DNA of 64,000 bases from positions 29,662-93,661 of the forward strand of contig JAXHVD010000002.1 in assembly GCA_034189385.1 (NCBI GenBank). Reading direction: 5' to 3'. The translations under genes were made by a program, and so were the position numbers. The notes beneath the pieces were generated by a model, which was not told the origin of the DNA, did no database searches, and saw nothing but the letters and a program-made list of their open reading frames with translations. Below, piece by piece: positions 31,533 through 45,100 of the stretch. The stretch comes from Thermodesulfobacteriota bacterium (GTDB taxonomy: Bacteria; Desulfobacterota; Desulfobacteria; Desulfobacterales; C00003060). Position 1 is the first letter of the stretch. Each line of letters begins with the position of its first letter.

Positions 31533-32498
31533 TTACCGCTTGATAAGGCCGTGCTCAATAAGGTACTTCTCGGCCACCTCCCTTGGTTCCATTCTCTCAA
31601 TATCTACCTTGGCGTTCAACTGCTGCCATACACCCTGGCACTTGCCAACGATCACCGGACTGGCTGGTTTCCCTCCCCCAGGAAAAGTGGCGACCAATCC
31701 ATTGATGATGTCAGCCATCTCCGGATACTTGTCCAGTGCATCCTTGCGGATATAGGGCGTCAAATCGTATGGGGGAAAAAAGGACTTGTCGTCTCTATAT
31801 ATGTGCCAGCCGTATTTGGCGATAGAGGCGTCTGTGCCAAAGACCATAGCTATGTCCGCCTTATGTTCCCTCAAGGCAATGAGTGAAGCCCCGGGTGTTC
31901 CCGCCTTCAGGGTACTTTTTGCTGCCTTAAAGCCATAAAACTTCTCGAGGGCTGACAGGCCGTCTGGGCGGATGGAGAATTCAAAGTTGACAAAGGTCTC
32001 TATCTTGCCGTCCTTCTTTTCATACAGCCCTGCCAAATCGCTCAGGGTGGCTACTTGGTGTTTCGTGGCAAATCCAGGCCACGATGCCATGGCATAGGTG
32101 TTGTTGTTCCATGTGGGATGAAGCCATATGAACTGATTGCCCTTTTCTTTCTCCTTTACAAGGTAGTAGAGCTGGTTGTTGTCAGTTCCAGGCTCGTACT
32201 GGTGCTTGAGGTGAACCATCCAGGCTGTCCCAGTATAGTCAGCACAGAGATCAATGTCGCCCGATTCCATGCCCCCTCTAAGGGCCATGGAAGTGAGGTC
32301 AGACCTCAGATCCACCTTGAAGCCACGGTCTTCCAATAGTTGCTTCATCAGTTCACCAATAATATACTGCTCGGTGAAGTTCTTGTTCCCCACGGTTACT
32401 CTTTTATCCGTTGCCCCGGCCGGCACGGGACCCGGTATCAGTGCAATCGTTATGGCCCAGAGAAGGGTACAAAAAATGCGTTTAAGCTTTACTCCCAT
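31533..32498 (-). CDS. Osmoprotectant ABC transporter substrate-binding protein (OpuCC/OsmF-like)
   Basis: Signal peptide; VGNKNFTEQ, DYTGT, NNTY, EFSIRPDG, VFGTD, FFPPY. Confidence 0.92.
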   Translation of the reverse strand: MGVKLKRIFCTLLWAITIALIPGPVPAGATDKRVTVGNKNFTEQYIIGELMKQLLEDRGFKVDLRSDLTSMALRGGMESGDIDLCADYTGTAWMVHLKHQYEPGTDNNQLYYLVKEKEKGNQFIWLHPTWNNNTYAMASWPGFATKHQVATLSDLAGLYEKKDGKIETFVNFEFSIRPDGLSALEKFYGFKAAKSTLKAGTPGASLIALREHKADIAMVFGTDASIAKYGWHIYRDDKSFFPPYDLTPYIRKDALDKYPEMADIINGLVATFPGGGKPASPVIVGKCQGVWQQLNAKVDIERMEPREVAEKYLIEHGLIKR

Positions 32499-32510
32499 GT
32501 CTCACTATCC

Positions 32511-33239
32511 TTAAAAACTTTCGGGTTCAATCCTTAGGCCCCTTGGAGTCATCCTCCGTTCCGCCAGCTCCAGAACTAGGCCCAGTGCGATGGCCATGGC
32601 TGCAGTGGGGGCTGCTCCCTGGAGGATGATTAAAGGCTCTCGAGCGAACACCCCTGTCAATGTAATCTTTCCCAAGCCTTCCCCGCCCACAAGAACGGCC
32701 AGCTCCGCTGTGCCAACGGTGATGACGGTGGAGACTCTAATCCCTGCCATGATGACCGGTCTTGCCAGAGGGAGCTCTATTCTTCGGGCGATTTGTATCC
32801 CTGTGAGCCCCATCCCCTGGGCAGCTTCTATGACTGCAGGATCAATAGATTTGATACTTGTGTAAGCATTGCGCAAGATAGGGAGCAGTCCATAGATGAC
32901 CAACGCCACAATGGCTGACTGCAGGCCAAAACCGAGAAGTGGGGCCATGACCGCAATGACAGCCAGGCTGGGGATGGTCTGCCCGATGTTTGCCCCGCCA
33001 ATCACAGGAAGGACAAGTGGTGAAAAAACCGGTCGAGCCACCAGGACTCCAAGGGGAACACTTATAGCAGTGGCTATGACGACGGCGATGAATACCATCT
33101 TGAAGTGAGCCCATGCGCTGTGGAGCAGATCACTGTAGGTAAAGGTGCTATAGATTCCCACCTTGCCCAAGCTCGTCACCCAGAGGGTAGCTCCCAAGAG
33201 AAGCGTCAAGAGGGCAAATAGAATCACCTGATGTCTCAT
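32511..33239 (-). CDS. Osmoprotectant ABC permease
   Basis: QTIPSLA, LPILRN, EAA loop (IEAAQGMG), ELPLARPVIMAGIR. Confidence 0.93.
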   Translation of the reverse strand: MRHQVILFALLTLLLGATLWVTSLGKVGIYSTFTYSDLLHSAWAHFKMVFIAVVIATAISVPLGVLVARPVFSPLVLPVIGGANIGQTIPSLAVIAVMAPLLGFGLQSAIVALVIYGLLPILRNAYTSIKSIDPAVIEAAQGMGLTGIQIARRIELPLARPVIMAGIRVSTVITVGTAELAVLVGGEGLGKITLTGVFAREPLIILQGAAPTAAMAIALGLVLELAERRMTPRGLRIEPESF

Positions 33240-34351
33240 TGAGAGGCTCCCCCTTGAACAGCCTCTCTCATGGTCTCCTGGATGGTTTCAAAGGTCACGA
33301 CACCTTCTAGTCTGTTGTGCTGATCTACGACAGCCAGGACATCTGAGCCGCTGGTCAACATAAGAGAAAGGGCCTCACTGAGCACAGCGTTTTTGCCGGC
33401 AGCAACAGACGAGATCTTGGTGATCTCTTTCACCCTGCCTGCTCCTTGTGCATCTGAAGCAGAAGCCCATCCCCTGAACTTGCCGTCAGGCTCAATGACC
33501 GCCAGCCGATCGATGCCATATTGCTTCATCCGTTTTCGGGCAGCTTCAGTCTTCTCGTCAGGATGTGCCGTGGGCGGGGACTTCCACATGACCTCCCTTG
33601 TGCGGATGAGCTGCAGACCTTTGAGCCCCCGATCAGCACCAACAAAACCTGCCACAAAGGAATCTTTGGGCCTGAAAAGCAAGTCTGCAGGCGGCGCGTA
33701 TTGCACGAGCTGGCCTTCCTTCATCAGGGCTATCTTGTCTCCCATCTTGATAGCCTCATAAATGTCGTGGGTAACTAGGATGATGGTCTTCTTTATCTCC
33801 TGCTGTATCTTCAAGAACTCGTTCTGCAATTCCAGTCGAGTGATGGGGTCTATGGCACCAAAAGGCTCATCCATGAGGAGCACAGGAGGATCCCCCCCCA
33901 ATGCCCGGGCCACGCCCACCCGCTGGCGCTCGCCACCAGAGAGTTCGCGGGGGTATTTTTCTATGTATTCATGAGGCCTCATCCTCAGGAGTTCCAAGAG
34001 TTCCTCTGCCCGCTTTCTTTGTTCGGCCTTTGTCCAGCCCTTCAGAGCAGGAACGGTTTCAATGTTTTCTCCAACCGTCATGTGAGGGAAAAGTCCCACA
34101 TCCTGAATGGCGTAGCCTATATTCCTGCGAAGCTCAGTTTCATCCATCGTCGAATTGTCTGAGCCATCAATATAGATGCTGCCGTCGGTCATGGCGATCA
34201 GTCGATTAATCATCTTCATGGTGGTGGTCTTCCCACATCCAGACGGGCCTAGCAGAACGCAGAGTTCCCCTTTCAGGACTTCAAAGCTTACCCTCCTGAC
34301 GGCCACGGTGCCATCAGGGTAGACCTTGGTGACGTTTTCCAGCCTGATCAT
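33236..34351 (-). CDS. Osmoprotectant ABC ATPase with CBS domains (OpuCA-like)
   Basis: GPSGCGKT, LSGGERQR, LMDEPFGAID, C-terminal CBS pair; ATGA-coupled start at 34351. Confidence 0.95.
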   Translation of the reverse strand: MIRLENVTKVYPDGTVAVRRVSFEVLKGELCVLLGPSGCGKTTTMKMINRLIAMTDGSIYIDGSDNSTMDETELRRNIGYAIQDVGLFPHMTVGENIETVPALKGWTKAEQRKRAEELLELLRMRPHEYIEKYPRELSGGERQRVGVARALGGDPPVLLMDEPFGAIDPITRLELQNEFLKIQQEIKKTIILVTHDIYEAIKMGDKIALMKEGQLVQYAPPADLLFRPKDSFVAGFVGADRGLKGLQLIRTREVMWKSPPTAHPDEKTEAARKRMKQYGIDRLAVIEPDGKFRGWASASDAQGAGRVKEITKISSVAAGKNAVLSEALSLMLTSGSDVLAVVDQHNRLEGVVTFETIQETMREAVQGGASQ

Positions 34352-35019
34352 TTTGATTCTACCCCTAGCCCTCGAGGTGTCATCCATCTCGCCAGCAGGG
34401 AAAGCAGACCGTCAACCATGAGGGCGAGCACAGAAACCAATACCCCGCCAATGATGATCAGGTCCATACGAGCGTTTCTCAATCCCCGGAAGATAGGCAC
34501 GCCAAGGCCCCCTGCCCCGATCAAAGCGGCAATGGCTGCAATGCCGACAATGAGGACGGTGGCATTCCTTAATCCTGCCATGATAACGGGAAGGGCAAGG
34601 GGAAATTTGACCTTAAAAAGCAACTGCCTTTCGGTCATGCCCATCCCCCTTCCAGCTTCGATCACTGCAGGGTCCACCTGCCGGATGGCCGTATAGGTGT
34701 TGCGCAAGATTGGAAGCTGGCCATAGACAATCAGCGTGATGACAGCGGGCACAAAGCCAATGGCACTTAATCCCATGTAGCCAAGGAGCAGCATGAGGAG
34801 CCCAAAAAGGGCCAGGCTTGGAACCGTCATCATGATCTCTGCCAGGTAGAGAACCCCATCTGCCAGGCGTTCCCGCCCTTTTCCTGCGATGAAGACTCCC
34901 AGGGTACAGCCCAACATAGCCGCTATGACCATGGCAACAAGGCTCAAAGTCACATGATCGACGCCCCACCTTGCCACCATGTCAGGATGGCTGAGCACGA
35001 ATTCATAGACTTCTGTCAT
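34348..35019 (-). CDS. Osmoprotectant ABC permease
   Basis: TVPSLALFG, LPILRNT, IEAGRGMG, IGAGGLG. Confidence 0.93.
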   Translation of the reverse strand: MTEVYEFVLSHPDMVARWGVDHVTLSLVAMVIAAMLGCTLGVFIAGKGRERLADGVLYLAEIMMTVPSLALFGLLMLLLGYMGLSAIGFVPAVITLIVYGQLPILRNTYTAIRQVDPAVIEAGRGMGMTERQLLFKVKFPLALPVIMAGLRNATVLIVGIAAIAALIGAGGLGVPIFRGLRNARMDLIIIGGVLVSVLALMVDGLLSLLARWMTPRGLGVESK

Positions 35020-35096
35020 AAGCTGTCACCGTCTATAAGAAGAGCATCCAATAAACGAGCCGCCAGCAGCGCCCCCGGGGGCAGGCAAGAATAGTA

Positions 35097-35147: not shown

Positions 35148-35172
35148 CCTTTTTTACAGACGATACAGGACT

Positions 35173-35664
35173 ATGTCAAATAATCTACAAGCATCTACGC
35201 AATGGGTCCCCGTTGAGGCCCCGCCAGATCCCGTAAAACAGATCATCTACCAGATCCGTCGGCTCATTCAGGCAAGAGAGCTTTACACCAAGGAGCTGAA
35301 CAAAAAATATTCGGTAACGGCAGCCCAACTCAATTGCCTTCTCGCCCTCCATGAAAGCGGGCCTTTACCCTTGTCCCATATCGCCAAGCTCATTATGGTG
35401 AAGTCCAGCACCGTCACAGGGATCATTGACCGTTTGGAACAAAAAGGGCTTGTGGAGCGAGTCAGAACCTCTCGAGATCGCCGAGTGATCACCATTCAGT
35501 TGACAGAAGCTGGAACCAGGCTAGCCAATAATGCCCCTCCCCCTATCCAACAGAAGATCATGGATGGCCTCAAAAAACTTCCCAAAGAGGATATAGAGCG
35601 CATTGTGACAGGTCTCAATATGCTCACGACCATGTTGGACGTCCAGGACCTGGAAGTGCGATAG
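35173..35664 (+). CDS. MarR family transcriptional regulator (EctR/CosR-like)
   Basis: IRRLIQARELYTKEL..VTAAQL, STVTGIIDRLEQKGLV, DRR..LTEAG; divergent from the osmoprotectant transporter. Confidence 0.92.
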   Translation: MSNNLQASTQWVPVEAPPDPVKQIIYQIRRLIQARELYTKELNKKYSVTAAQLNCLLALHESGPLPLSHIAKLIMVKSSTVTGIIDRLEQKGLVERVRTSRDRRVITIQLTEAGTRLANNAPPPIQQKIMDGLKKLPKEDIERIVTGLNMLTTMLDVQDLEVR

Positions 35665-35958: not shown

Positions 35959-36004
35959 TTGACATGTCACACAGCCTCGAGTATGATTTCAGTTCAAATA
36001 TTTC
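35959..36004 (+). promoter_or_regulatory. Near-consensus sigma70 promoter of the mttB-like operon with overlapping candidate operator
   Basis: TTGACA-N17-TATGAT (35959-35987); TTTCAGTTCAAA (35987-35998) and AAATATTTC overlap -10/+1. Confidence 0.7.
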
Positions 36005-36149
36005 GACATCATATCATGTCAGCAAAACCATTCTGAAGCGTTACTTCCCCTTCAATCCCCTTTGAATGACTGCACAATAGACCTGCCGCCCACATCGTGT
36101 GTGGGGCACCCGTCTATTGGGAGTGACACTGTTTTGCGAGGAGAGTTTT

Positions 36150-37364
36150 GTGAACCAAAAAGAGGTGGAAAAATCGAGGTCGTTGTTGGGTAAGGATGCC
36201 GTGGAAATGCTCATGCAAGTCCACCAGGATGCCCTGTGGATACTGGAGAACCTTGGTGTGGGCTGCCAAGAGCCGGAAATCCAAAAGGTATTTCGGCAGT
36301 TTGAGGCGGACGGGTTGGCTGTGGTCTACGAAGACCGCGTGTTCGTGACCTCCAGCCTGGTGGAGGAGTGCCTCCAACGGGCGCCAGGGGTGAGTGACTT
36401 TTTTGTGCCCAGGAACAGCTTCTTCATCGGCGGTACAGCGCCCTATGTCTATGACGATGATGCCGGAAAGGGCGGGCTGGCCCCCACACCCCAGCATTTG
36501 ATCCGAATTGCCCAGATAGCCGAGGAGCATAGAATGGTGGCCGGTATGGGCAGGGGGATAAAGCTGAAGGACGAAGTGGAGCAGATGAACATCATGGCCG
36601 CGCATTGTACGAAGCCCCTCTATTTTGCGGTGACCTCCGATGGCGCCTTGGCCAGGGCCAAAGAGATCCACGAACAGAGAGGGAACATTATGATCGTGTT
36701 TTGCCTTACCCGGCCCCCTTTGGAGGTCAACGAAAACTTCTCCGGCCACTTCGTCAAGGTGGTCAGGGCCGGGTTGCCGGTATTTATCTCAGCCATGCCC
36801 ATGGGCGGCATCAGCGCCCCCTATTGCTACAACGGCGTTCTGGCTATGACCCATGCCGAGGTCCTCTTCGGCATCTGTGCAGCCCAGCTGCTCCATCCAG
36901 GGGTGACGTGCGTTCATGCAGGCTTTCCCACCATTGCCGATCCTCGGATTGAATACAATCCAAATTATGGCCTTGTGAGTCACAATTTCTTGAATATCCT
37001 CATGACCCACCTGAACCTTATGTTGGATCTGCCCTCCTTCCAGAGTGGCGGTACCACCCATGAAGAACACCCCACGGAGCAAGCCTTTGCAGATGCCAGG
37101 ATGGGCCAAGCCCTATGTCTGAAATACGGATTTCACATGATCCGCCATCCCTTTGCCTTTCTCCGCTACCTCATCGACTTCTCCATAGCCAAACTCGAAA
37201 AGGCGGCCAGAATCGCCGAGGAAGTCACTCCTGAAGAGGCCCCAGAGGTGGAAACGCCCACGTACGACGAGAGGGGCATGGAGTCCATCAAGCGTATCGG
37301 TTTGGGTATGTACATGGAAGATTCCCTTACCACGGCGAACCTTGGAAGGATCTTCGTTAGTTAG
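36150..37364 (+). CDS. Trimethylamine methyltransferase (MttB) superfamily protein, non-pyrrolysine, short form (copy 1)
   Basis: HQDALWILENLGV, LVEECLQRAP, GGTAPYVYD, AMPMGGISAP, THAEVLFG; GTG start after GAGGAG; 404 aa; no internal TAG. Confidence 0.8.
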   Translation: MNQKEVEKSRSLLGKDAVEMLMQVHQDALWILENLGVGCQEPEIQKVFRQFEADGLAVVYEDRVFVTSSLVEECLQRAPGVSDFFVPRNSFFIGGTAPYVYDDDAGKGGLAPTPQHLIRIAQIAEEHRMVAGMGRGIKLKDEVEQMNIMAAHCTKPLYFAVTSDGALARAKEIHEQRGNIMIVFCLTRPPLEVNENFSGHFVKVVRAGLPVFISAMPMGGISAPYCYNGVLAMTHAEVLFGICAAQLLHPGVTCVHAGFPTIADPRIEYNPNYGLVSHNFLNILMTHLNLMLDLPSFQSGGTTHEEHPTEQAFADARMGQALCLKYGFHMIRHPFAFLRYLIDFSIAKLEKAARIAEEVTPEEAPEVETPTYDERGMESIKRIGLGMYMEDSLTTANLGRIFVS

Positions 37365-37390: not shown

Positions 37391-39010
37391 ATGTGTGGGT
37401 TAGCAGGATGTGTTGGGACAAATGACCTTGGAACCGTTAATCGTATGCTGGATGCCCTTCCCCACCGTGGTCCCAATGACAGGGGCCTCCATACGCATGG
37501 AGATACGGTTCTGGGGCACACGCGACTATCCATCGTAGACGTGGCCCAGGGTCGTCAGCCCATTTTGGTAAAAGGGGGAAGCGCAGGCGTTATCTGCAAC
37601 GGCGAGGTTTACAATTTTCGAAACCTTAGAGGCAAGCTTTCGCCTAAGCACCGGTTTGTGACCAAATCGGATACTGAGGTGATCCTCCATCTCTATGAGG
37701 AGAAGGGGCCGGAATGCGTCAGAGAGCTGGACGGCATGTTCGCCTTTGCGGTTTTCAACGGTGATGATTTTATGCTGGCACGGGACCCCATTGGTATCAA
37801 GCCCCTCTATTACGGTTATTATAATGATAACCTCTATTTCAGCTCAGAACTGGGCGCCATGACCCTGGCCGGTGTTGACGAGGTGCATGAGTTTCCTGCG
37901 GCCCACTACTACACCCTTCAGGAGGGTTTTGTCGAGTATTACCAGATCCCAGAGATTCAGGACCATCTCCTCACCGATATTGAAGAGACCAGCTGCTTGA
38001 TTAGAGAGACCTTCATCAGGGCGGTAAAAAAGAGATTGTTGGCCGACCCGGAAGTCCCTGTGGGTTCTTTTTGCAGTGGTGGGCTGGACAGTAGTCTGGT
38101 TGCAGCCATTGCGGCTGAAGAGATCCCTCATCTTCACACCTTTGTGGTTGGGATGAAGGACGATCATGGGGATGTGAGCGACGATATAAAGGCGGCGCGC
38201 ATTGCTGCCGGCCACATAGGCTCCACCCATCACGAATTGATCTTCACGGAGGATGAATACTATGAGGCCCTTCCAAAAGTGATAAGAAAACTTGAGAGTT
38301 ATGACCCTTCCTTGGTTCGCTGTGCCATCCCCTGCTACTTTACCTGCAAGCTTGCAGCCGATTATGTCACTGTAGTTCTCACCGGTGAAGGCGCAGACGA
38401 GCTCTTCACAGGCTATCACTACATGAAGCATTTTCCCTTTGATAAGCTGAACATGGAGGCCAGGCGCTGCATTGGCAACCTTCACAATATCAACCTGCAA
38501 CGGGCCGATCGTATGGGCATGCTCTTCAGCCTCGAACTCAGGGTCCCTTATCTGGATGTGAACATGATCGATCTTTCTATGAAGATCCCGCCTGAGCTCA
38601 AGATTCGAGAGCACAAGGGCGCCAAGATCGAAAAGTGGATCTTACGCAAAGCCTTTGAAGGCACCGGTTATCTCCCAGACGACATCCTATGGCGATATAA
38701 GGTTCAGTATACCCAAGGAGCCGGCTGCGAGAGCCTAGGGGAGACGCTGGCAGAAAAAGAGATGAGCGAAGACGAGTTTCAGAAGATCAAGGCTGAAAAT
38801 CCCAAGGCCACCATTAACAACAGGGAGGCTGCCTTTTACTATAAGATTTTTCGTGAGTCTCACCCGCAGGATTCTATTCTTGGCTCCATCGGGATCTGGA
38901 CGGGCTTTGACTTCGCAGAGGAAAGAGAACGGGTGCGGGGAACGGTGGACGGAGACCTAAAATACGAACATGGAGAAAAGGAGTCCAAAAACAGGACCAT
39001 GGCTGTGTAA
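37391..39010 (+). CDS. Asparagine synthetase B-like amidotransferase (intact class II GATase)
   Basis: MCG N-terminus, HRGP, GHTRLSIVD, NGEVYN, RDPIGIKPLY, SGGLDSS, TGEGADELF, EKWILR. Confidence 0.92.
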   Translation: MCGLAGCVGTNDLGTVNRMLDALPHRGPNDRGLHTHGDTVLGHTRLSIVDVAQGRQPILVKGGSAGVICNGEVYNFRNLRGKLSPKHRFVTKSDTEVILHLYEEKGPECVRELDGMFAFAVFNGDDFMLARDPIGIKPLYYGYYNDNLYFSSELGAMTLAGVDEVHEFPAAHYYTLQEGFVEYYQIPEIQDHLLTDIEETSCLIRETFIRAVKKRLLADPEVPVGSFCSGGLDSSLVAAIAAEEIPHLHTFVVGMKDDHGDVSDDIKAARIAAGHIGSTHHELIFTEDEYYEALPKVIRKLESYDPSLVRCAIPCYFTCKLAADYVTVVLTGEGADELFTGYHYMKHFPFDKLNMEARRCIGNLHNINLQRADRMGMLFSLELRVPYLDVNMIDLSMKIPPELKIREHKGAKIEKWILRKAFEGTGYLPDDILWRYKVQYTQGAGCESLGETLAEKEMSEDEFQKIKAENPKATINNREAAFYYKIFRESHPQDSILGSIGIWTGFDFAEERERVRGTVDGDLKYEHGEKESKNRTMAV

Positions 39011-39074: not shown

Positions 39075-40556
39075 ATGGCAAGCATAGCAGGGATTATATC
39101 GCAGCACGGTAGAATCAACGCCAATTGCACCAAGCAAGTTGGAAAGATGTTGAAACTCATGCGTCACAGAGGTCCAGATAATTCTATCATCCGAACCTTG
39201 ACAGACGACAGAGGGGCATTGGGTGCCAATGAAATCAACCTGACGCCGCAGATGACCCATTGCACATCCCTGGACGAATCTCCATACATACTCTTTGATG
39301 GGGAACTCCACAATGACAGGCCCAACGGCCAGAGCGACATAGACCTCTTCAAGGAATACTACGAAAAGTATGAGAGAAACTGTTTTTCCCGTTTAGATGG
39401 AAGCTTCTCCTGTGTCATTGTGGAAAAAGACGAAGAGGTTATCCTTGCCCGGGATCACGTAGGGGCGCGGCCCCTCTTCTTTGGCTCTGACAACAGCGTG
39501 TTTTATTTCAGTTCGGAGATGAAGGGTCTGATAGACCATGTTCAATTCAATATCCAAGAGCTTGCTCCAGGATGCCTCTTGAGTAGCAAGAAGGGGATGA
39601 CAGATTTTGCGCCGTTTGCTGCTGAGGTGCCGGAAATCGGTGACTTGAAGGAGACGGCCGCCGTGCTAAAAGACCTCCTCGTAGAAGCGGTGAGGCAGAG
39701 AATGGATGGGACGGATGCCGTCTCTTTGAGCGGAGGACTGGATAGTTCCATCGTGGCCGCCATTGCCAAGGAGTTCAACCCCAATCTCAAATTGTTTACC
39801 GCTGCGGTGGAGCGAAAGCCAGGCCCAGACCTGGAAAACGCCAAACACATGGCGGAATACCTGGGGTTGGAACATTACATCTACATGATCTCCGATCAAG
39901 ACATCGTTGATTTTATCTCCGATGCCGTCTGGTATTTAGAGAGTTTCGATGAGGACTGTATATCAGGCATTATTTCCAACTACTATATGTCCAAAATGGT
40001 CAAGCAATACTGTAATATGGTCCTCGTTGGGGAGGGGGCGGATGAGTTGTTTGGCGGCTATCGCATGGTCCTGAAGAACCCCAAGGTAAAGAGTGAGGAG
40101 CAAAGAGAACGGCTTGCTCAGAAGCTTGTGGATATTGCCTATAATACGGCCCTGAGAAGGCTTGATAGGGCCTGGATTGCCAATGGCGTCGTCTATCGGA
40201 CGCCCTTCCTGGATACCAAGATCGTTGCCTTCAGCCAGAAGATACCTATGGCGTGGAAGATATACGGTGAGAAGCAGACAGAAAAATTCATCCTAAGAGA
40301 GGCCTTCAGGGATATCCTTCCAGAGAGAATCGCCAATCGTGAAAAGCTCAGGTTTGCCATGGGTACGGGTATGGACGATGTGATGGACGAGGTCGTGGCC
40401 GATAAGATCAACCCCGAAGAGATAAAGCAAAGGCCTAAGGCAGCCTATGGCCTGCCTTTTGCTTCCTTTAAGGAGCTTTATTATTACGACGAATTCCTGC
40501 AGCTCTTCCCACCATCTTACGAGAAACAGACCATCCGCTGGGATCCGTTTAAATAG
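39075..40556 (+). CDS. Asparagine synthetase-like ATP-dependent amide ligase with inactive glutaminase domain
   Basis: MASIAG (no Cys1), DGELHN in place of NGEIYN; intact LSGGLDSS, GEGADELFGGY, PFLD, EKFILR; GGGAGG RBS. Confidence 0.88.
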   Translation: MASIAGIISQHGRINANCTKQVGKMLKLMRHRGPDNSIIRTLTDDRGALGANEINLTPQMTHCTSLDESPYILFDGELHNDRPNGQSDIDLFKEYYEKYERNCFSRLDGSFSCVIVEKDEEVILARDHVGARPLFFGSDNSVFYFSSEMKGLIDHVQFNIQELAPGCLLSSKKGMTDFAPFAAEVPEIGDLKETAAVLKDLLVEAVRQRMDGTDAVSLSGGLDSSIVAAIAKEFNPNLKLFTAAVERKPGPDLENAKHMAEYLGLEHYIYMISDQDIVDFISDAVWYLESFDEDCISGIISNYYMSKMVKQYCNMVLVGEGADELFGGYRMVLKNPKVKSEEQRERLAQKLVDIAYNTALRRLDRAWIANGVVYRTPFLDTKIVAFSQKIPMAWKIYGEKQTEKFILREAFRDILPERIANREKLRFAMGTGMDDVMDEVVADKINPEEIKQRPKAAYGLPFASFKELYYYDEFLQLFPPSYEKQTIRWDPFK

Positions 40557-40571: not shown

Positions 40572-41909
40572 ATGTCATTTCCAACAAGCTACAAGTATGT
40601 CATTGTGGGGGCCGGCATTCACGGTCTCAGTACTGCCTACCATCTGGCCAGGGAACTAAGGAAGAAGAAGTCCGCTGGGTCAGGAAAAGACATTCTGGTC
40701 ATAGACAAAACAGCCATTGGGGCCGGGGCCTCGGGAATCGCCTGCGGCGTTATCCGAAACAATTACTACCAACCTGCCATGCAGGAGCTTATTGCCCACA
40801 GTGTAGGCGTCTGGGAAGAGGATGGTGAGGGATATGGCTATTATCCTGTGGGCTATATGCAGATTTCCCCTGAGTCCATGCATCTTGATGTGGCCGGGAT
40901 TCACGGCCGGCAGAAAGACATGGGGTATCCATCTGTATTCATTGAAGGAGAAAAGGAATGTCTGGCCTATATGAAAGAGAACATCTTTCATGACTGGCAG
41001 GCGAAGAATATTACCTCCGTCTTACACGAGAAAAAGGGCGGTTACGCCCATAATACGAGATCGTTGTACCGGCTCGCAGACAAGGCGGAGGCCGAAGGGG
41101 TTCGAATCCTGACGGGAGTGGAGGTCACTGGATTTAGGACTTCTAACGATGTTGTGACTGCTGTTCAAACCCTGAAAGGCGATATTGCCTGTGACTGGGT
41201 GGTTATTGGCGCGGGCCCCTGGGCCAAAGGTTTTTGGGACATGCTAGACCTTCCCAAGGAGATCGCCGTGAGAGGCCCTGACGGTACGATGCACGATGGT
41301 ATGAAAATGTGGACATACTGGTGCCTTGAGGAAGGCACCCTTGGCGTGCCTCCAGAGCATGGCATGAATAACGACGGGAAGATGCCTCCAGTCATTCATG
41401 TGGATTCAGACGCCCCTCTCTATTCTAGCGAGGATGGTTCTCTTATCACGGACAAGATGTGGGGCATCTACTACAAGCCGGACTTCCACTTCAAAGGGAT
41501 CCAGGGTGGTTCCACGCCCTACATTGTGGAAGGGGAAGAGGTGGCGGTAGATCCCTACGGCATCGATTCCCCTGATTTCATTGCGGGCCCTGAATTTGCT
41601 CATATGTGGACCTCGGCCCTTGCTCATTGCCAGAAAAGGTACGAGGATAAGTATCGATACTACAAGAAGGAGCCCTCTGGAGGCCTCGGCGCTTTCACGC
41701 CCGATAATTTTCCCATCTTCGATACGATGAAAGAGAATTGCTACATGATTTTGGATTCCAATCACGGCTACAAGATGATTGGAGTGGGACAACTGGTAGC
41801 CAAAGAGGTCCTAGGAACGGAGCAGGCCCTGCTCAAGCCTTTCCGTTTTGATCGCTACGCCAAAGGGGAGCTGCACCCAGTATCTAATAGTCCCTTTCCC
41901 TGGAGCTAG
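40572..41909 (+). CDS. FAD-dependent amine oxidoreductase, sarcosine oxidase beta / N-methylglutamate dehydrogenase A-like
   Basis: VIVGAGIHG, GASGIACGVIRNNY, IGAGPW, FTPDNFP, DSNHGYK, C-terminal HPVSNSPFPWS. The MgdA resemblance is recalled, not computed. Confidence 0.8.
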   Translation: MSFPTSYKYVIVGAGIHGLSTAYHLARELRKKKSAGSGKDILVIDKTAIGAGASGIACGVIRNNYYQPAMQELIAHSVGVWEEDGEGYGYYPVGYMQISPESMHLDVAGIHGRQKDMGYPSVFIEGEKECLAYMKENIFHDWQAKNITSVLHEKKGGYAHNTRSLYRLADKAEAEGVRILTGVEVTGFRTSNDVVTAVQTLKGDIACDWVVIGAGPWAKGFWDMLDLPKEIAVRGPDGTMHDGMKMWTYWCLEEGTLGVPPEHGMNNDGKMPPVIHVDSDAPLYSSEDGSLITDKMWGIYYKPDFHFKGIQGGSTPYIVEGEEVAVDPYGIDSPDFIAGPEFAHMWTSALAHCQKRYEDKYRYYKKEPSGGLGAFTPDNFPIFDTMKENCYMILDSNHGYKMIGVGQLVAKEVLGTEQALLKPFRFDRYAKGELHPVSNSPFPWS

Positions 41910-42105
41910 TTGGTTTCCATTCAGAAATGGCATCTTTTCGCCCAATGCGGCGTTCTCCGCGGGTTCCTGTCCTCGACGTAGCGCTGCTACGCCTGTGGCA
42001 GCAACCCTTGTGCGGCCTTGTCTTGGACGAAAATCTACCCTTTCTGAATTGGAACCTGGCCCCCGGTGTCCATGGTTTGTGGACTCATTTGTGGATGGAC
42101 ACTGG
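41910..42105. mobile_element. Palindromic MITE-like element inserted in the operon
   Basis: Imperfect arms GGTTTCCATTCAGAAATGG / CCCTTTCTGAATTGGAACC (41912-42056), inner TTTTCGCCCAA/TTGGACGAAAA, central CGTAGC-GCT-GCTACG, second IR GTGTCCAT/ATGGACAC; flanked by TAG on both sides. Confidence 0.65.
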
Positions 42106-42125
42106 TAGGGCAGTGGAGTTGTTAA

Positions 42126-42974
42126 ATGGAGCTGACCATCCTTGGATCAGGGGGATGCACGGTCATCCCCAAGCCTCTTTGTGGATGCCCTGTCTGTGAA
42201 GAGGCAAGGAGAAAAGGGGCGCCCTACGAGAGGACTGGGCCATCGGCATTCATCCATGATGTGAACCTGCTCATCGACACACCTGCAGAGATAGCGCTCC
42301 AGCTAAACCGATCCCCAATTGACCAGATTGATTACCTCCTCTTTACTCACCTGGATCCGGACCACATCGAAGGATCCCGCGTGGTAGAACATCTTGCCCT
42401 CGACTTTCGCACGTGGCAGGCCTATCCGGACAAAGAGATCCAACTCATCCTCCCCGAGAAGCTGGACAATCGCTTGAGGGACATTCGGTCTATTTACGGA
42501 CCCCTTATCGACTACTACGAAGAACAAGGTTTCGTGCAAAGGACCCCTTTTCAGGACAGTATCGAGCTAGGAGGAATGAGCATCACGGGTATTCCCATAG
42601 ACCGTGGTTCTCAATGGTCCTATATATATGTGTTTAAAAGTAAGGGCCGAAAGATGGTCTATGCACCCTGTGACATTAAACCTTTCCCTGAGGACCGGCC
42701 TGAGGTTCTCAGGGCGGACCTCTTGGTCATACAGCCTGGCATCTTTGAAGACGGGCTGAAGCATGGTTTTACCTATGGCGAGGATCACATCTCCAGAACA
42801 ACGCTCTATACCTTTGAAGAGACCTTGGCACTGGCTAGAAGGATCCGGGCCGACCATGTCCTTTTCATTCATCTTGAGGAGTACTGGAACAGAAGTCATG
42901 ATGACTATGTGGCACTGGAGGCAAGTCTAGACAACGTCCGATTTGCCTACGACGGCATGCACGTGAATGTGTAG
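42126..42974 (+). CDS. Metallo-beta-lactamase-fold hydrolase, PhnP-like
   Basis: ILGSGG, CGCPVC structural Zn site, LLIDTP, THLDPDH (HxHxDH variant), FIHLEE, AYDGM. Confidence 0.88.
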   Translation: MELTILGSGGCTVIPKPLCGCPVCEEARRKGAPYERTGPSAFIHDVNLLIDTPAEIALQLNRSPIDQIDYLLFTHLDPDHIEGSRVVEHLALDFRTWQAYPDKEIQLILPEKLDNRLRDIRSIYGPLIDYYEEQGFVQRTPFQDSIELGGMSITGIPIDRGSQWSYIYVFKSKGRKMVYAPCDIKPFPEDRPEVLRADLLVIQPGIFEDGLKHGFTYGEDHISRTTLYTFEETLALARRIRADHVLFIHLEEYWNRSHDDYVALEASLDNVRFAYDGMHVNV

Positions 42975-42983
42975 GGAGAGAAC

Positions 42984-44162
42984 ATGAATATTGAGGACAA
43001 TGACTATTTGGAGAGAATTCACCGTGACGCGCTTTGGATTCTGGAAGAAGTGGGCGTGGCATGCCCTTCTTTGGAAGTAAGGAAGATTTTTGAGGCTACG
43101 GGCCTTGCCGCCTATGACGAGATGACAGGACATCTTCACGTCCTGGCTCCCTTGGTAGAACAGGCCCTTAACACAGCGCCAAAGCGGGATGCGTATTGGA
43201 TTCCCGAGGACTCCTTTGGAGTTGGGGGAACGGCACCCTTTGTCTATGATGATGAGACTGGTGACCTCATAGCGCCCACCTTCGAACATCTTGCCAAGAT
43301 AGCCAGGATTGTTGACAACGCTGATGTCATTGACTTTATGGCTAGGGGGGTTCTGATTAAGAAGGAAGAGGTGAAGGTTATAGACACCCTTGTGGAGAAT
43401 TGCCATAAACCCATCTATGTAGCTGCTGTGACGGATGCAGGCATTGCCAGGGCTCAGGAAATCCATGAGACTAGAGGCGACCTTACTGTCCAATTTTCCA
43501 TCATCAACAGTCCGTTGAATGTCATCGAAAGCATGATCGATCCATTCCTTTTGTGCGTGAGAAAAGGGATCCCTATCTATGTCTCTACCATGCCCATGGC
43601 TGGCCTTTCGTCTCCTTATTGTATGTCCGGTCTCTTGGCCCTGACGCACGCTGAAGCCCTCTTTGGCATCACCCTGACCCAACTGGTCAACCCGGGACTC
43701 ATGGTGGTCCATGCCGGCCTTCCCTCCATTGCGAACATCCAGAAGAACTATGCCGTGGACTTAGGACTCATCTCACACAACGTGGCCAACCTTTTGACGG
43801 AAAAGGTGAACGAGAGACTGGGGCTCCCGTCCATACAGACGGCCTGCACAACGAGCCAGGAAAGGCCCAACAAAAAGGCCGAAGAAGAGGCTATCGCAGG
43901 ATATGGCCTTATGAAAAAGTACGGTTTTCACCAGATGCGGCATGCCTTTGGATTCTTAAAGGAACTGATTTCTTTTTCCATCGCCAAGCTGGAAAGGCAT
44001 ATCGCCCTTTGCCAGGAGACAGGACCAGACCAGGCCCCCGAATATGACATTGAGCCCTATGACCCAGAAGGCCTTGATGCCATTAAGCGCAACGGCAGTC
44101 AGGCCAACTACATGCGGGACGATCATACCTTGAAAAATACGGGGAAATCCTTTATGTGTTAG
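42984..44162 (+). CDS. MttB superfamily protein, non-pyrrolysine, short form (copy 2)
   Basis: HRDALWILEEVGV, GGTAPFVYD, SIINSPL, TMPMAGLSSP, THAEALFG; colinear with 36150..37364; 392 aa. Confidence 0.8.
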   Translation: MNIEDNDYLERIHRDALWILEEVGVACPSLEVRKIFEATGLAAYDEMTGHLHVLAPLVEQALNTAPKRDAYWIPEDSFGVGGTAPFVYDDETGDLIAPTFEHLAKIARIVDNADVIDFMARGVLIKKEEVKVIDTLVENCHKPIYVAAVTDAGIARAQEIHETRGDLTVQFSIINSPLNVIESMIDPFLLCVRKGIPIYVSTMPMAGLSSPYCMSGLLALTHAEALFGITLTQLVNPGLMVVHAGLPSIANIQKNYAVDLGLISHNVANLLTEKVNERLGLPSIQTACTTSQERPNKKAEEEAIAGYGLMKKYGFHQMRHAFGFLKELISFSIAKLERHIALCQETGPDQAPEYDIEPYDPEGLDAIKRNGSQANYMRDDHTLKNTGKSFMC

Positions 44163-44182
44163 GATAAGGAAATCTGCGGAAA

Positions 44183-45100
44183 ATGAAAGTAGCCGTTTAT
44201 CAGACGAGCCCGGTCCTATTGGATGTGAAGGCCAACCTGGAAGGTGTGATTTCTAAGATCCATGAGGGTCGAGAAAAGGGGGCCAGGCTCATCGTGTTCC
44301 CTGAGCTGGCCCTCACAGGGTATTTCGTGGGGCAAAGATATCACGAAGTGGCTCTGAGGCTGGATTCTCCAGAGATCAAGAAACTAGCATCTGCTACAAA
44401 AGGCACGGCGGCCGTAGTGGGCTTTATCGAGGAATCCCTCTCTATGAACTTTTACAACTCTGCCCTTGTGGCCGTAGACGGAGAGATCTTTTTTGCGTAC
44501 CGCAAACTCAACCTGCCCAACTACGGTGTCTTTGAGGAGCGGAAATACTTCGCCCATGGAAAACAGGTTCCTGTATTGAGACTCCTCGGCTTTAATATTG
44601 CTGTGTTCATCTGCAATGATCTCTGGCATCCCTCCCTGCCGTATCTCGGAGTGTGCCAAAAGGCAGACATCTTTGTGACGATCTTCAGCTCGTCACAGGG
44701 TTCCATGGGGGATGAATTCAGCAATATCGAAAGCTGGTCCATCATCGACAGTTTCTATTCGCGCATTTTTGGCATATATAATATCTGTGCCAACCGGGTG
44801 GGAGAAGAATGCTATGAAGAGAGGCGGTCTTCGGTCATCTATGAAACTGACGGGGCAGATTCAGCAGAGGCCCCATTTCAGATGTTCCAGGATACCACTT
44901 TCCGGTTCTGGGGGGGCAGTGAGATCATCAACCCTTTTGGCAACCCTATTGCAAAGGCTGCGCTTTACGAGCCGGACCAAATCTTCGGAGAGATTTCAAG
45001 AGACCTCCTCCGTCGAAAAAAGATCATGCTTCCCTACCTCAGAAATGATGATCCCTACTTCACCCATCGTGAGCTTCAGCGCATTTTGTATGGAAACTAG
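44183..45100 (+). CDS. Carbon-nitrogen hydrolase (nitrilase superfamily), NAD-synthetase-glutaminase-like
   Basis: Triad E (FPELALTGY), K (YRKLNLPNYGVFEERKYF), C (ICNDLW); ANRVG, FWGGS. Confidence 0.9.
   Translation: MKVAVYQTSPVLLDVKANLEGVISKIHEGREKGARLIVFPELALTGYFVGQRYHEVALRLDSPEIKKLASATKGTAAVVGFIEESLSMNFYNSALVAVDGEIFFAYRKLNLPNYGVFEERKYFAHGKQVPVLRLLGFNIAVFICNDLWHPSLPYLGVCQKADIFVTIFSSSQGSMGDEFSNIESWSIIDSFYSRIFGIYNICANRVGEECYEERRSSVIYETDGADSAEAPFQMFQDTTFRFWGGSEIINPFGNPIAKAALYEPDQIFGEISRDLLRRKKIMLPYLRNDDPYFTHRELQRILYGN

What the first reader, a model, noticed from the sequence alone, without database searches (positions are those of the whole stretch)
31533..45100. Candidate new pathway: MarR-controlled methylated-amine/amide locus (OpuC importer, 2 MttB-like, 2 AsnB-like, MgdA-like, MBL, nitrilase)
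Seen: a four-gene OpuC-type importer divergent from a MarR gene, then one strong promoter and seven co-oriented genes with 9-64 bp gaps (apart from one MITE). Established: MttB-family proteins move N-methyl groups to corrinoids. AsnB-family enzymes form amides via acyl-adenylates. Sarcosine-oxidase-beta/MgdA flavoproteins oxidise N-methyl amino acids. Nitrilase-family enzymes hydrolyse amides. EctR/CosR-type MarRs control compatible-solute genes. I know no described pathway with this combination. Inference, three alternatives: (a) synthesis and turnover of an unknown N-methylated amino-acid amide osmolyte; (b) stepwise demethylation of an imported betaine such as trimethylglutamate to N-methylglutamate and glutamate; (c) an anaerobic analogue of the N-methylglutamate pathway in which an AsnB-like ligase captures methylamine.
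Basis: partly seen in the sequence, partly recalled or inferred. Interest (0 to 1): 0.85.

Follow-up and report, generated by a model that had tools for sequence, protein, structure and literature searches.

The report
Conserved betaine-type demethylation operon, unknown substrate
This is a real, widely shared but uncharacterised gene cluster of sediment sulfate-reducer relatives that most likely imports a methylated ammonium compound and strips its methyl and amide groups, using two unusual short relatives of trimethylamine methyltransferase whose substrate and methyl acceptor are unknown.

Summary

The cluster is modular.
- An AsnB-type gene is present in 46 of 46 well-covered loci, either Cys-bearing, Cys2-less or both.
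- The DAO flavoprotein (31 of 46) never co-occurs with a corrinoid protein plus canonical MttB (7 of 46).
- OpuC-type importers lie beside or inside the operon in at least five different arrangements.
- SoxBAG-like, pterin-binding and B12-activation genes are occasional additions.

The two MttB-like proteins form a distinct short clade with a true MttB fold (TM 0.76-0.80). G000 has no cap-domain corrinoid protein.

Best reading, at 0.45: MarR-controlled catabolism of an imported trimethylammonium compound by stepwise N-demethylation plus amide hydrolysis. The substrate, the methyl acceptor and the role of AsnB are unknown. I found no description in print. I rate it a new variant of a known kind, interest about 0.6.

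The parts
31533..32498 (-). Substrate-binding protein of the OpuC/OsmF-type ABC importer (321 aa)
   Evidence: Pfam OpuAC 146 bits. NCBIfam OsmF 133 bits, below the 400 cut-off. Nearest solved relatives are choline/acetylcholine-sensor scaffolds, OsmF, OpuCC/OpuBC, ProX and EgtUC.
32511..33239 (-). ABC importer permease (242 aa)
   Evidence: Pfam BPD_transp_1.
33236..34387 (-). ABC importer ATPase with C-terminal CBS domain (383 aa)
   Evidence: Pfam ABC_tran plus CBS.
34348..35019 (-). ABC importer permease (223 aa)
   Evidence: Pfam BPD_transp_1. Overlaps the ATPase gene by 40 bp.
35173..35664 (+). MarR-family regulator (163 aa), divergent from the importer
   Evidence: Pfam MarR 64.7 bits. 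No NCBIfam equivalog is reached. An ortholog precedes mttB1 in 31 of 46 well-covered loci.
35959..35987 (+). Sigma-70-type promoter TTGACA-17-TATGAT of the seven-gene operon
   Evidence: 11 of 12 match. CTTGACA is present in 23 of 31 homologous intergenic regions.
35988..36021 (+). Conserved operator-like sequence just after the -10 box (TTCAGTTCAAATATTTCGACATCATATCATGTCA); near-palindromes TCAAATATTTCGA and CATCATATCATG
   Evidence: Seen by eye in the aligned listing of 31 regions. TCAAATA occurs in 14 of 31. That this is the MarR site is inferred. The motif is not enriched in the window.
36150..37364 (+). mttB1: short non-pyrrolysine MttB-superfamily protein (404 aa from GTG 36150; the ORF is open from 36099)
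   Evidence: Pfam MTTB 76 bits. 44-45% identical to mttB2. No internal stop. Orthologs are 65-83% identical.
37391..39010 (+). asnB1: glutamine-type asparagine synthetase B-like (539 aa), N-terminus MCG
   Evidence: NCBIfam asnB equivalog 585 bits against a cut-off of 499. E. coli AsnB 285 bits. Cys2 is present in 28 of 28 orthologs.
39075..40556 (+). asnB2: AsnB-like amide synthetase without the N-terminal Cys nucleophile (493 aa, MASIAG...)
   Evidence: asnB equivalog 304 bits, below 499. The PP-loop and the equivalents of E348, D351, E352, R387 and K449 are kept, while R325 is Ser. No Cys at position 2 in 29 of 29 orthologs.
40572..41909 (+). DAO-family FAD-dependent amine oxidoreductase (445 aa)
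   Evidence: Pfam DAO 117 bits, N-terminal half only. soxB subfamily 66.8 bits against 529. The best solved relative is an L-proline dehydrogenase/sarcosine oxidase beta-type chain, 45.7 bits.
41912..42056 (.). MITE-like insertion with 34-nt imperfect terminal inverted repeats
   Evidence: Absent from the same gap in relatives.
42126..42974 (+). MBL-fold hydrolase of the PhnP/PqqB-like kind (282 aa), motif THLDPDH
   Evidence: Pfam Lactamase_B_2 52 bits. Weak matches to 6b9v and PhnP. The motif is present in 43 of 44 orthologs.
42984..44162 (+). mttB2: short non-pyrrolysine MttB-superfamily protein (392 aa)
   Evidence: Pfam MTTB 112 bits. AlphaFold2 model pLDDT 94.5. Foldseek TM 0.76-0.80 to MttB, MtgB and 4yyc. 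Orthologs are 73-84% identical in 80 loci.
44183..45100 (+). CN-hydrolase (nitrilase-superfamily amidase/glutaminase-like, 305 aa)
   Evidence: Pfam CN_hydrolase 108 bits. The best solved relatives are NAD+ synthetase glutaminase domains, 85.6 bits. The E41-K108-C144 triad is invariant in 38 of 38 orthologs.

Best explanation
The locus is a modular catabolic or scavenging operon, probably spread by lateral transfer, for an imported trimethylammonium (betaine-type) compound that probably also carries a carboxylate or amide. The proposed steps follow; only the gene families and their linkage are shown, and each step is inferred.

1. The OpuC-type ABC system imports the compound.
2. MarR represses the operon at the conserved palindromes just downstream of the -10 box until a ligand arrives.
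3. The two short MttB paralogs remove N-methyl groups in succession. mttB1 would act on the quaternary form and mttB2 on the next, protonated form.
4. The last N-methyl group is removed or the amine is oxidised by the DAO flavoprotein. In other genomes a canonical MttB with its corrinoid protein, or a SoxBAG-type enzyme, supplies a further N-demethylation module in its place.
5. The MBL-fold and CN-hydrolase enzymes cleave an ester or phosphodiester and an amide or carbamoyl bond of the skeleton.
6. The AsnB-type enzyme makes a primary amide from an aspartate-like carboxylate. It could be asparagine itself, acting as a sink for the released nitrogen, or an amide form of a pathway intermediate.

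The substrate, the methyl acceptor and the order of steps are unknown.
For: The gene set is conserved as a unit.
- Short MttB genes occur in 12 of 25 genus genomes, with the same order wherever contigs allow.
- 115 of 200 candidate stretches in species-representative genomes encode an mttB2 relative, and the 80 loci kept are 73-84% identical.

OpuC-type importers are linked in several independent arrangements (19 of 80 loci overall; 9 of 26 with long flanks).
- Divergent and upstream: the window, L016, L017.
- Downstream: L027, L035, L043, L067, L093, L120.
- Between dao and mttB2: L042, L069.
- After mttB1: L115, L117.
- Downstream in G033.

The optional modules are all N-demethylation machinery. 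They include a corrinoid protein (B12-binding_2 plus B12-binding), a canonical MTTB (289 bits), Pterin_bind, the Met_synt_B12 activation domain, and SoxB/SoxA(GCV_T)/SoxG-like genes.

Among 46 well-covered loci, DAO is in 31, the corrinoid protein in 7, and both together in none. Most variants therefore carry three candidate demethylases: mttB1 + mttB2 + DAO, or mttB1 + mttB2 + canonical MttB.

Two loci place a corrinoid protein directly beside the short genes: L113 has MarR-mttB1-mttB2-corrinoid protein, and L118 has corrinoid protein-mttB1.

mttB2 has the MttB fold. It keeps the residue that aligns with the carboxylate-binding H348 of MtgB (abstract of PMC13080624).

mttB1 and mttB2 differ at fixed positions near the aligned MtgB cage: 86 is Y/F, 284 is F/I and 327 is Y/E.

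The binding protein's nearest solved relatives bind choline, betaines, carnitine or ergothioneine.

The promoter and operator-like sequence are conserved across genomes.

AsnB1-type genes were found only in the genus (8 of 25 genus genomes; 0 of 16 genomes of other genera), and 7 of those 8 also carry a short MttB gene.
Against: - No enzyme here has been assayed, and no substrate can be named.
- An ATP-consuming amide synthetase has no obvious place in a catabolic route, yet it is the most constant partner (46 of 46 loci).
- AsnB1 scores as a plain asparagine synthetase. Its active-site signature is ordinary for its roughly 500-aa clade. In G022 it sits beside genes I took from their lengths and similarity to be purF, carB and carA, which were not scanned against a family library.
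- G000 has asparaginyl-tRNA synthetase, so free asparagine has a housekeeping use.
- No cap-domain corrinoid protein was found in G000 (90% complete), G022, G013 or G003. Both small B12-binding proteins of G000 are mutase subunits. The proposed methyl acceptor is therefore missing in most DAO-type carriers.
- Three of the four MtgB substrate residues are not kept.
- Desulfotignum carries only asnB2-MBL-mttB2 and no second short MttB, which does not fit a count of three methyl groups.
- Flavin amine oxidases and quaternary-amine methyltransferases act on different substrates, so their mutual exclusion need not mean that they are equivalent.
- The loci are related to one another, so the counts are not independent.
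Confidence: 0.45

Rival explanations
1. The operon makes, and recycles, an unknown N-methylated amino-acid amide that serves as a compatible solute. The AsnB-type enzyme would form the amide, and the MttB-like proteins would run in the methylating direction.
For: AsnB-type amidation in osmolyte synthesis has a precedent, AsnO in NAGGN synthesis (recalled). AsnB1 matches that NCBIfam model only weakly, at 258 bits against a cut-off of 570. Importer plus biosynthesis loci under MarR-type regulators are known for osmoprotectants (recalled). In a few loci, neighbouring genes look by eye like sucrose-phosphate synthase, sucrose phosphorylase, fructokinase and a mechanosensitive channel (L037, L054, L063). 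I did not scan these against Pfam.
Against: Two hydrolases and an amine dehydrogenase are not what a biosynthetic route needs. The optional modules (SoxBAG-like, canonical MttB with corrinoid protein and pterin-binding methyltransferase) are those of methyl-group catabolism. No MttB-family enzyme is known to me to act as an N-methylase (recalled). I recall carrier N47 as coming from fresh water, which does not fit an osmolyte role.
Confidence: 0.12
2. The demethylation and hydrolysis genes form the pathway, and the AsnB genes are only asparagine synthetases that travel with it. They would supply asparagine, or fix the ammonia released, without acting on any pathway intermediate.
For: AsnB1 passes the asnB equivalog cut-off. 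Both AsnB proteins keep the residues that bind the alpha-amino group and the adenylate in human ASNS (passages of PMC6748925). AsnB1 lies outside the operon in G022, G013 and Desulfotignum. Some variants have no AsnB gene nearby (L113, L115, L117). G000 has asparaginyl-tRNA synthetase.
Against: The AsnB slot between mttB1 and the next gene is filled in 46 of 46 well-covered loci. A second, highly diverged form without Cys2 is kept at 63-91% identity. Relatives without the operon lack AsnB1 altogether. A passenger gene would not be expected to show such linkage.
Confidence: 0.18
3. An anaerobic analogue of the N-methylglutamate pathway. AsnB2 would ligate methylamine to aspartate, the flavoprotein would oxidise the N-methyl group, and the CN-hydrolase would regenerate aspartate.
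For: AsnB2 lacks the glutaminase nucleophile, so it must take ammonia or an amine from solution. A ligase, oxidase and amidase would form a closed carrier cycle, like the gamma-glutamylation routes (recalled).
Against: Five genomes whose operon has only AsnB1 have no AsnB2 anywhere. All 28 AsnB1-type proteins keep Cys2. N-methyl amides are poor substrates for flavin amine oxidases (established chemistry, recalled). The scheme gives the two MttB proteins and the OpuC-type importer no role.
Confidence: 0.05
4. The short MttB proteins are not substrate:corrinoid methyltransferases. Instead they bind free corrinoid or another cofactor, and the operon salvages or remodels it. Alternatively they pass methyl groups directly to a thiol or to folate.
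For: No cap-domain corrinoid protein was found in 4 of 5 genus carriers tested. The last ~63 residues of MtgB have no counterpart in mttB2. The corresponding part of MttB anchors the loop that docks MttC (passages of PMC9842639). The clade has its own invariant His, Cys and Arg residues.
Against: A corrinoid protein lies directly beside the short genes in 10 loci: 8 of the 80, plus L113 and L118. The importer is of the onium-compound type, not the Btu type. The fold and the barrel are those of MttB and MtgB.
Confidence: 0.1

Closest known systems
MtgBCA-type quaternary-amine methyltransferase systems: MtgB of Desulfitobacterium hafniense, and MtcB, MtpB and MtyB of Eubacterium limosum
   Same: The proteins are non-pyrrolysine MttB-superfamily TIM barrels (Pfam; fold). 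They are linked to betaine-type importers. In 10 loci they are linked to a corrinoid protein, and in some of those to a pterin-binding methyltransferase and an activation domain.
   Different: The proteins are about 390-405 aa instead of about 480-500. They score 76 and 112 bits against 289 for a canonical neighbour. They lack a counterpart to the last ~63 residues of MtgB. They keep 1 of the 4 MtgB substrate residues. They come as a fixed pair of paralogs. In most carriers they have no corrinoid protein in the operon, and in G000 none was found in the genome. The described systems have no AsnB, MBL, CN-hydrolase or DAO partners (recalled).
Aerobic betaine to dimethylglycine to sarcosine to glycine route, and the N-methylglutamate pathway (SoxBDAG/MgdABCD flavoproteins)
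   Same: The logic is stepwise removal of N-methyl groups ending with a DAO-family flavoprotein. True SoxB/SoxA/SoxG-like genes are inserted in the operon in L055, L041 and L115, and a SoxA-like gene lies beside mttB1 in G033.
   Different: The operon's own DAO protein is not a SoxB or MgdA ortholog (66.8 bits against 529). The hosts are relatives of anaerobic sulfate reducers. No gamma-glutamylmethylamide synthetase or N-methylglutamate synthase is present in the window region annotated.
Asparagine synthetase B, and AsnB-like enzymes that lack the Cys nucleophile (beta-lactam synthetase, CarA)
   Same: AsnB1 meets the asnB equivalog cut-off. AsnB2 keeps the PP-loop and adenylate-site residues. 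Like beta-lactam synthetase and CarA (recalled), it has no N-terminal Cys.
   Different: AsnB2 is much closer to E. coli AsnB (163 bits) than to beta-lactam synthetase or CarA (58 and 56 bits). No AsnB is known to me as part of a methylamine or betaine operon, and I found no paper on one.
Glutaminase (CN-hydrolase) domain of glutamine-dependent NAD+ synthetase
   Same: These domains are the best solved relatives of the operon's CN-hydrolase (85.6, 68.5 and 56.9 bits). The Glu-Lys-Cys triad is intact.
   Different: The protein stands alone and has no fused synthetase domain. Its presence does not track the Cys2-less AsnB2; I judged this by reading the listing, not by a formal count. A role as ammonia donor for AsnB2 is therefore not supported.

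Membership tests
MttB superfamily (PF06253) | Profile match above Pfam's gathering score | tested here: met
   76.3 and 112.1 bits against a cut-off of 25. This is far below a canonical neighbour at 289 bits.
MttB superfamily (PF06253) | TIM-barrel fold of MttB and MtgB | tested here: met
   mttB2 model pLDDT 94.5. The top 10 Foldseek hits are chains of MttB, MtgB and 4yyc, with TMq 0.76-0.80. The next fold, MtmB, scores 0.52. mttB1 was not modelled.
Trimethylamine methyltransferase MttB proper (TIGR02369) | In-frame UAG (pyrrolysine) and a score above the equivalog cut-off | tested here: not met
   No internal stop. Scores are 68.8 and 94.7 bits against a cut-off of 525. Thr289 aligns with the pyrrolysine position.
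Glycine betaine methyltransferase MtgB | Substrate residues Y97, R312, H348 and F356 (abstract of PMC13080624) | tested here: not met
   In mttB2 only H348 is kept, as H320. R312 aligns with I284, F356 with L328, and Y97 falls in a 9-residue deletion. This rests on a pairwise HMMER alignment at about 20% identity, so it is approximate.
Corrinoid-dependent methyltransferase system (MT1 + corrinoid protein + MT2) | A cognate corrinoid protein encoded with the methyltransferase | tested here: inconclusive
   There is none in the window. No PF02607 domain was found in G000, G022, G013 or G003, and one was found in G020. The small B12-binding proteins of G000 are mutase subunits. A corrinoid protein is adjacent to the short genes in 8 of 80 loci and in L113 and L118.
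Asparagine synthetase B (NF006949) | Equivalog cut-off, N-terminal Cys nucleophile, PP-loop | tested here: met
   For AsnB1: 585 bits against 499, an MCG N-terminus, and SGGLDSS. For AsnB2 the test is not met: 304 bits, an MAS N-terminus, and R325 replaced by Ser.
Sarcosine oxidase beta / MgdA (TIGR01373) | Score above the subfamily cut-off | tested here: not met
   66.8 bits against 529.45. Only the N-terminal half matches Pfam DAO. A structure model failed (pLDDT 36).
Nitrilase (CN-hydrolase) superfamily | Pfam match and the Glu-Lys-Cys triad | tested here: met
   108 bits. E41, K108 and C144 are invariant in 38 of 38 orthologs. It is not a nitrilase proper: nitrile_Arch scores 50 bits against a cut-off of 500.
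OpuC/OpuB/OsmF-type ABC importer | OpuAC binding protein, two permeases and an ATPase with CBS | tested here: met
   The ligand is unknown. The OsmF equivalog is not reached, at 133 bits against 400. I did not map the aromatic-cage residues; their identity is recalled only.
EctR/CosR-type MarR regulators | Orthology to a characterised compatible-solute regulator | not tested
   Only generic MarR-family matches were found, all below their equivalog cut-offs. No EctR, CosR or GbsR model appeared among the 23 matches listed.

The most novel reading that the evidence does not exclude
The short MttB pair would be a pyrrolysine-independent solution to a step that no known anaerobe enzyme performs: removing the second and third methyl groups of a betaine, from the tertiary and secondary amine forms. 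In most carriers they would do this without a dedicated corrinoid protein, passing methyl groups to another acceptor. The ever-present AsnB-type enzyme would be an ATP-driven amidation step that is part of the chemistry, with the CN-hydrolase removing the amide afterwards. Together these would let sediment sulfate reducers mineralise betaines completely instead of excreting dimethylglycine-type products.
Probability: 0.12. Interest if true: 0.85.

Novelty: new variant of a known kind. Interest (0 to 1): 0.62.

Why it matters
Quaternary amines are major carbon and nitrogen currencies of sediments and precursors of methane. As I recall the field, the known anaerobic MttB-family systems remove one methyl group and leave products such as dimethylglycine.

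This cluster is present in about 4% of sampled genomes of the phylum (16 of 401). It contains two divergent MttB paralogs, further demethylation modules and an importer. It is therefore a concrete, clonable candidate for a more complete anaerobic degradation route.

It also poses two sharp biochemical questions. The first is what accepts the methyl group where no corrinoid protein is encoded. The second is why an asparagine-synthetase-type enzyme is always attached.

Its proteins are 66-80% identical between lineages whose GatB is 46-47% identical. That points to lateral spread and hence to a selectable, self-contained function.

Tried and rejected
- Complex prediction of the L086 mttB2 (alignment A1) with its neighbouring corrinoid protein (A2) gave 'no answer', score 0.00. 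I draw no conclusion for or against binding. The solved MttB-MttC interface uses the partner subunit of an MttB dimer (passages of PMC9842639), and a monomer job cannot show that.
- The look-up of sequencing runs for RNA listed no RNA holder. Co-transcription and induction remain untested, and read laying was not used.
- The DAO structure model was unusable (pLDDT 36.4 from a 10-row alignment), so no fold search was made for it.
- The Atlas look-ups gave only generic names: DAO-family oxidoreductases, and MTTB proteins of Thermodesulfobacteriota.
- Rfam found nothing in the window, so there is no known riboswitch in the 160-nt leader.
- The operator-like 13-mer is not enriched in the window: 15 matches with up to 3 mismatches against 14.9 expected. 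The similar GAAATATTTC in the marR-importer intergenic region is only a hint.
- I considered the CN-hydrolase as a stand-alone glutaminase feeding the Cys2-less AsnB2, and rejected the idea as unsupported. The hydrolase also occurs with AsnB1-only operons and is missing from the Desulfotignum asnB2-MBL-mttB2 sets (read by eye).
- I considered that AsnB1 has an altered aspartate site (S-L for T322-T323, and N for D384). I rejected this because the same signature is common among 130 representatives of its clade: L in 82, N in 53.
- I considered several specific substrates and could support none of them: glycine betaine, beta-alanine betaine, DMSP, choline esters, creatine-type compounds, N-methylated aminophosphonates and trigonelline.
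Supplementary files were not requested; the alignment supplements of PMC9842639 and PMC13080624 might refine the residue mapping.

Full report
**What is there.**
- A four-gene OpuC/OsmF-type ABC importer lies on the minus strand. It comprises an OpuAC binding protein, two BPD_transp_1 permeases and an ATPase with a CBS domain.
- A MarR gene is divergent from it.
- Seven co-oriented genes follow: mttB1, asnB1, asnB2, a DAO-family flavoprotein, an MBL-fold protein, mttB2 and a CN-hydrolase.

The gaps between the seven genes are 26, 64, 15, 216, 9 and 20 bp. The 216-bp gap is caused by a 145-bp MITE-like element with 34-nt inverted ends. It has seven diverged matches on five other contigs of the genome and is absent from the same gap in relatives.

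The operon promoter, TTGACA-17-TATGAT at 35959-35987, matches 11 of 12 positions. The true start of mttB1 is probably GTG 36150. No Rfam family matches anywhere in the window.

**The individual proteins.**
- The two MttB-like proteins are 44-45% identical to each other. They have no internal stop, so no pyrrolysine.
- They are weak members of PF06253, at 76 and 112 bits. A canonical MttB encoded beside the operon in another genome scores 289.
- A confident model of mttB2 (pLDDT 94.5) finds only chains of MttB, MtgB and 4yyc in its first 10 hits, at TM 0.76-0.80, then MtmB at 0.52. The fold is therefore that of the superfamily.
- The proteins are about 100 residues shorter than MttB. The last ~63 residues of MtgB have no counterpart. 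In MttB the C-terminal helices anchor the dimerisation loop, which is the main docking site of the corrinoid protein MttC (passages of PMC9842639).
- Of the four substrate residues of MtgB (abstract of PMC13080624), only the carboxylate-binding His is kept.
- The short clade has its own invariant residues. mttB1 and mttB2 differ at fixed positions: 86 is Y/F, 284 is F/I, 288 is G/C, 291 is H/S and 327 is Y/E.
- AsnB1 passes NCBI's asparagine synthase B equivalog cut-off (585 against 499) and starts MCG.
- AsnB2 is only 28% identical to AsnB1 and scores 304 bits. It starts MASIAG, without the N-terminal Cys nucleophile.
- AsnB2 keeps the PP-loop and the equivalents of E348, D351, E352, R387 and K449, but has Ser for R325. 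Residue roles come from passages of PMC6748925.
- Among orthologs, 28 of 28 AsnB1-type proteins have Cys2 and 0 of 29 AsnB2-type proteins do. At position 3, 8 of the 29 have Cys, 20 have Ser and 1 has Gly.
- The flavoprotein is a remote DAO-family member (soxB 66.8 against 529).
- The CN-hydrolase has an intact Glu-Lys-Cys triad (38 of 38). It is closest to the glutaminase domains of NAD+ synthetases.
- The MBL protein belongs to the PhnP/PqqB-like group. Its best solved match, 6b9v, is called an FAD photoproduct diphosphatase in one figure legend I read.
- The binding protein's solved relatives bind choline, betaines, carnitine or ergothioneine.

**Conservation.** Within the genus, 12 of 25 genomes have short MttB genes. 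Wherever contigs allow, the order MarR-mttB1-(asnB1)-asnB2-dao-mbl-mttB2-cnh is kept at 61-91% identity.

A scan of species-representative genomes gave 115 confirmed relatives of mttB2. The 80 loci kept are 73-84% identical. They come from MAGs labelled Desulfobacterales, Desulfobacteraceae, Desulfatiglandales and Desulfotignum, and from strains NaphS2 and N47.

In an even sample of the phylum, 16 of 401 genomes (12 of 255 genera) have the clade. The hits are sharply bimodal: at least 68% identity for mttB2 orthologs, or 41-45% for mttB1 orthologs.

GatB of G000 is 46-47% identical to that of NaphS2, a Desulfatiglandales MAG and the L049 genome. The operon proteins are 66-80% identical to theirs (asnB2 of L049 is an outlier at 63%). 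This is one marker only, but it suggests lateral spread.

**Modularity.** I called ORFs in the 80 loci and clustered them. I then tabulated the 46 loci that have at least 6.5 kb upstream of mttB2.

| Feature | Loci (of 46) |
|---|---|
| AsnB-type gene (A1 only 24, A2 only 17, both 5) | 46 |
| mttB1 | 39 |
| MBL | 35 |
| DAO | 31 |
| MarR | 31 |
| Corrinoid protein | 7 |
| DAO and corrinoid protein together | 0 |
| Neither DAO nor corrinoid protein | 8 |

- Six of the eight loci with neither are Desulfotignum-type asnB2-MBL-mttB2 sets. Those genomes have no second short MttB.
- The CN-hydrolase is present in 37 of 58 loci that have at least 2.5 kb downstream.
- Five genomes whose operon has only AsnB1 have no AsnB2 anywhere. 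Either form therefore suffices.

Pfam confirms the optional genes:
- a corrinoid protein (B12-binding_2 plus B12-binding);
- canonical MTTB;
- Pterin_bind;
- the Met_synt_B12 activation domain;
- SoxB, SoxA (GCV_T) and SoxG-like genes;
- a giant protein that matches only a SIS domain in Pfam; a shorter member of its cluster shows a Cys-type amidotransferase N-terminus by eye.

Further variants add to the picture:
- MarR-mttB1-mttB2-corrinoid protein, with no AsnB (L113);
- a nine-gene set with the full corrinoid module (L118);
- SoxBAG-mttB1-importer (L115);
- MarR-mttB1-importer-CNH, with the remaining genes on another contig (L117, L116);
- MarR-mttB1-asnB2-mttB2-importer (L120);
- SoxA-CNH-mttB1-PrpD-importer (G033).

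OpuC-type importers of two kinds were found in 19 of 80 loci. They sit upstream, downstream or inside the operon.

**Regulation.** The sequence CCTTGACA, about 17-19 nt, a -10 box, then TTTCAGYTCAAATAATTTGA and ATGATATCAT recurs upstream of mttB1 in other genomes. CTTGACA is in 23 of 31 regions and TCAAATA in 14 of 31. I take the palindromes to be the MarR operator, which is an inference.

**The missing methyl acceptor.**
- G000 has only these two MttB-family genes.
- It has no B12-binding_2 domain.
- Both of its small B12-binding proteins sit beside methylmalonyl-CoA mutase genes.
- G022, G013 and G003 also lack PF02607, and G020 has one.
- The genomes are 89-98% complete, so absence is not proven.
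- In marine aerobes, MttB-family enzymes use an unlinked, shared corrinoid protein (passages of PMC12478193). Unlinked partners therefore have a precedent, but here none was found.

**The AsnB puzzle.**
- AsnB1-type genes (E at most 1e-100) occur in 8 of 41 relatives. All 8 are in the genus, and 7 of the 8 also carry a short MttB gene. None of the 16 genomes of other genera has one.
- Yet AsnB1 looks like an ordinary member of a large clade of roughly 500-aa AsnB proteins.
- In G022 it lies beside genes I took to be purF, carB and carA from their lengths and similarity, without a family scan.
- G000 has asparaginyl-tRNA synthetase and GatB.
- I cannot tell whether AsnB acts on a pathway intermediate or simply supplies asparagine.

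**Reading.** The linkage to onium-type importers, the MttB fold, and the fact that every optional module is N-demethylation machinery point the same way. They make catabolism of an imported trimethylammonium compound by stepwise demethylation the best-supported explanation, at 0.45.

Most variants have three candidate demethylases: mttB1, mttB2 and DAO, or mttB1, mttB2 and a canonical MttB. That fits three methyl groups, but the Desulfotignum sets do not fit.

The substrate, the acceptor, the order of steps and the roles of AsnB, MBL and the CN-hydrolase are all inferred or unknown.

The rivals are listed with their odds in their own section:
- an osmolyte-synthesis locus;
- a pathway with AsnB as a passenger;
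- methylamine capture;
- a non-canonical function of the short MttB proteins.

**Novelty.** Full-text searches found nothing relevant. They combined MttB or trimethylamine methyltransferase with asparagine synthase or synthetase. Papers on the MttB superfamily that I saw in search listings concern canonical members.

I file the locus as a new variant of a known kind: quaternary-amine methyltransferase gene clusters. It has a distinct MttB subclade and unprecedented partners.

**Limits.**
- Most loci are MAG contigs and are related to one another, so the counts overstate independence.
- My ORF calls are crude; antisense shadow ORFs formed two spurious clusters.
- The residue mappings rest on alignments at about 20% identity.
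- Expression could not be examined.
- The complex prediction gave no answer.

Noticed in passing
window 41912-42056; G000 contigs C10, C24, C6, C34, C23: A 145-bp hairpin-forming element with 34-nt imperfect terminal inverted repeats sits between dao and mbl. It has seven diverged matches (68-83% identity) on five other contigs of the genome. It looks like a MITE or REP-like family and does not appear to split the operon.
   Followed up: partly
window 45453-47348 (+), with a promoter-like site at 45263-45292: A hybrid PAS-HisKA-HATPase-receiver kinase lies directly downstream of the operon, behind its own 11 of 12 promoter match. Weakly similar kinases (25-40% identity) lie near the operon in several other loci. 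This is probably generic similarity.
   Followed up: no
window 27264-31503: Upstream of the importer lie an ammonium transporter, a Gcw_chp outer-membrane-type protein, a class-I glutamine amidotransferase and a 163-aa ORF with no family match. The last three were not found next to the operon in the relatives examined; the ammonium transporter was not used as a query.
   Followed up: partly
window 14056-19705 (-) and G000:C1 around 180878-184216: There are two methylmalonyl-CoA mutase loci, each with a separate 132-133-aa B12-binding subunit. The one in the window lies next to acyl-CoA dehydrogenase and thiolase genes. These are the only small B12-binding proteins found in the genome.
   Followed up: yes
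L037, L054, L063 (downstream of mttB2): In a few genomes, genes that look by eye like fructokinase, sucrose-phosphate synthase, sucrose phosphorylase and a mechanosensitive channel lie between mttB2 and the CN-hydrolase. This could be an osmotic-stress neighbourhood. They were not scanned against Pfam.
   Followed up: no
L056:11234-15910, L095, L099, L115:12412-16824: A giant protein of up to 1558 aa matches only a SIS domain in Pfam; a shorter member of its cluster shows a Cys-type amidotransferase N-terminus by eye. It recurs beside the operon or its importer in at least seven loci. Its function is unknown.
   Followed up: partly
window 48988-51866: An ECF sigma factor, a putative zf-HC2 anti-sigma factor and a class III (c3-type) cytochrome lie downstream. 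They appear unrelated to the finding.
   Followed up: no
Desulfotignum loci L085, L089, L091, L094, L097: The three-gene set asnB2-MBL-mttB2 follows two genes that look by eye like a Fur-family regulator and a catalase-peroxidase (KatG). A conserved ORF of about 90 aa with no family match lies downstream of the set.
   Followed up: no
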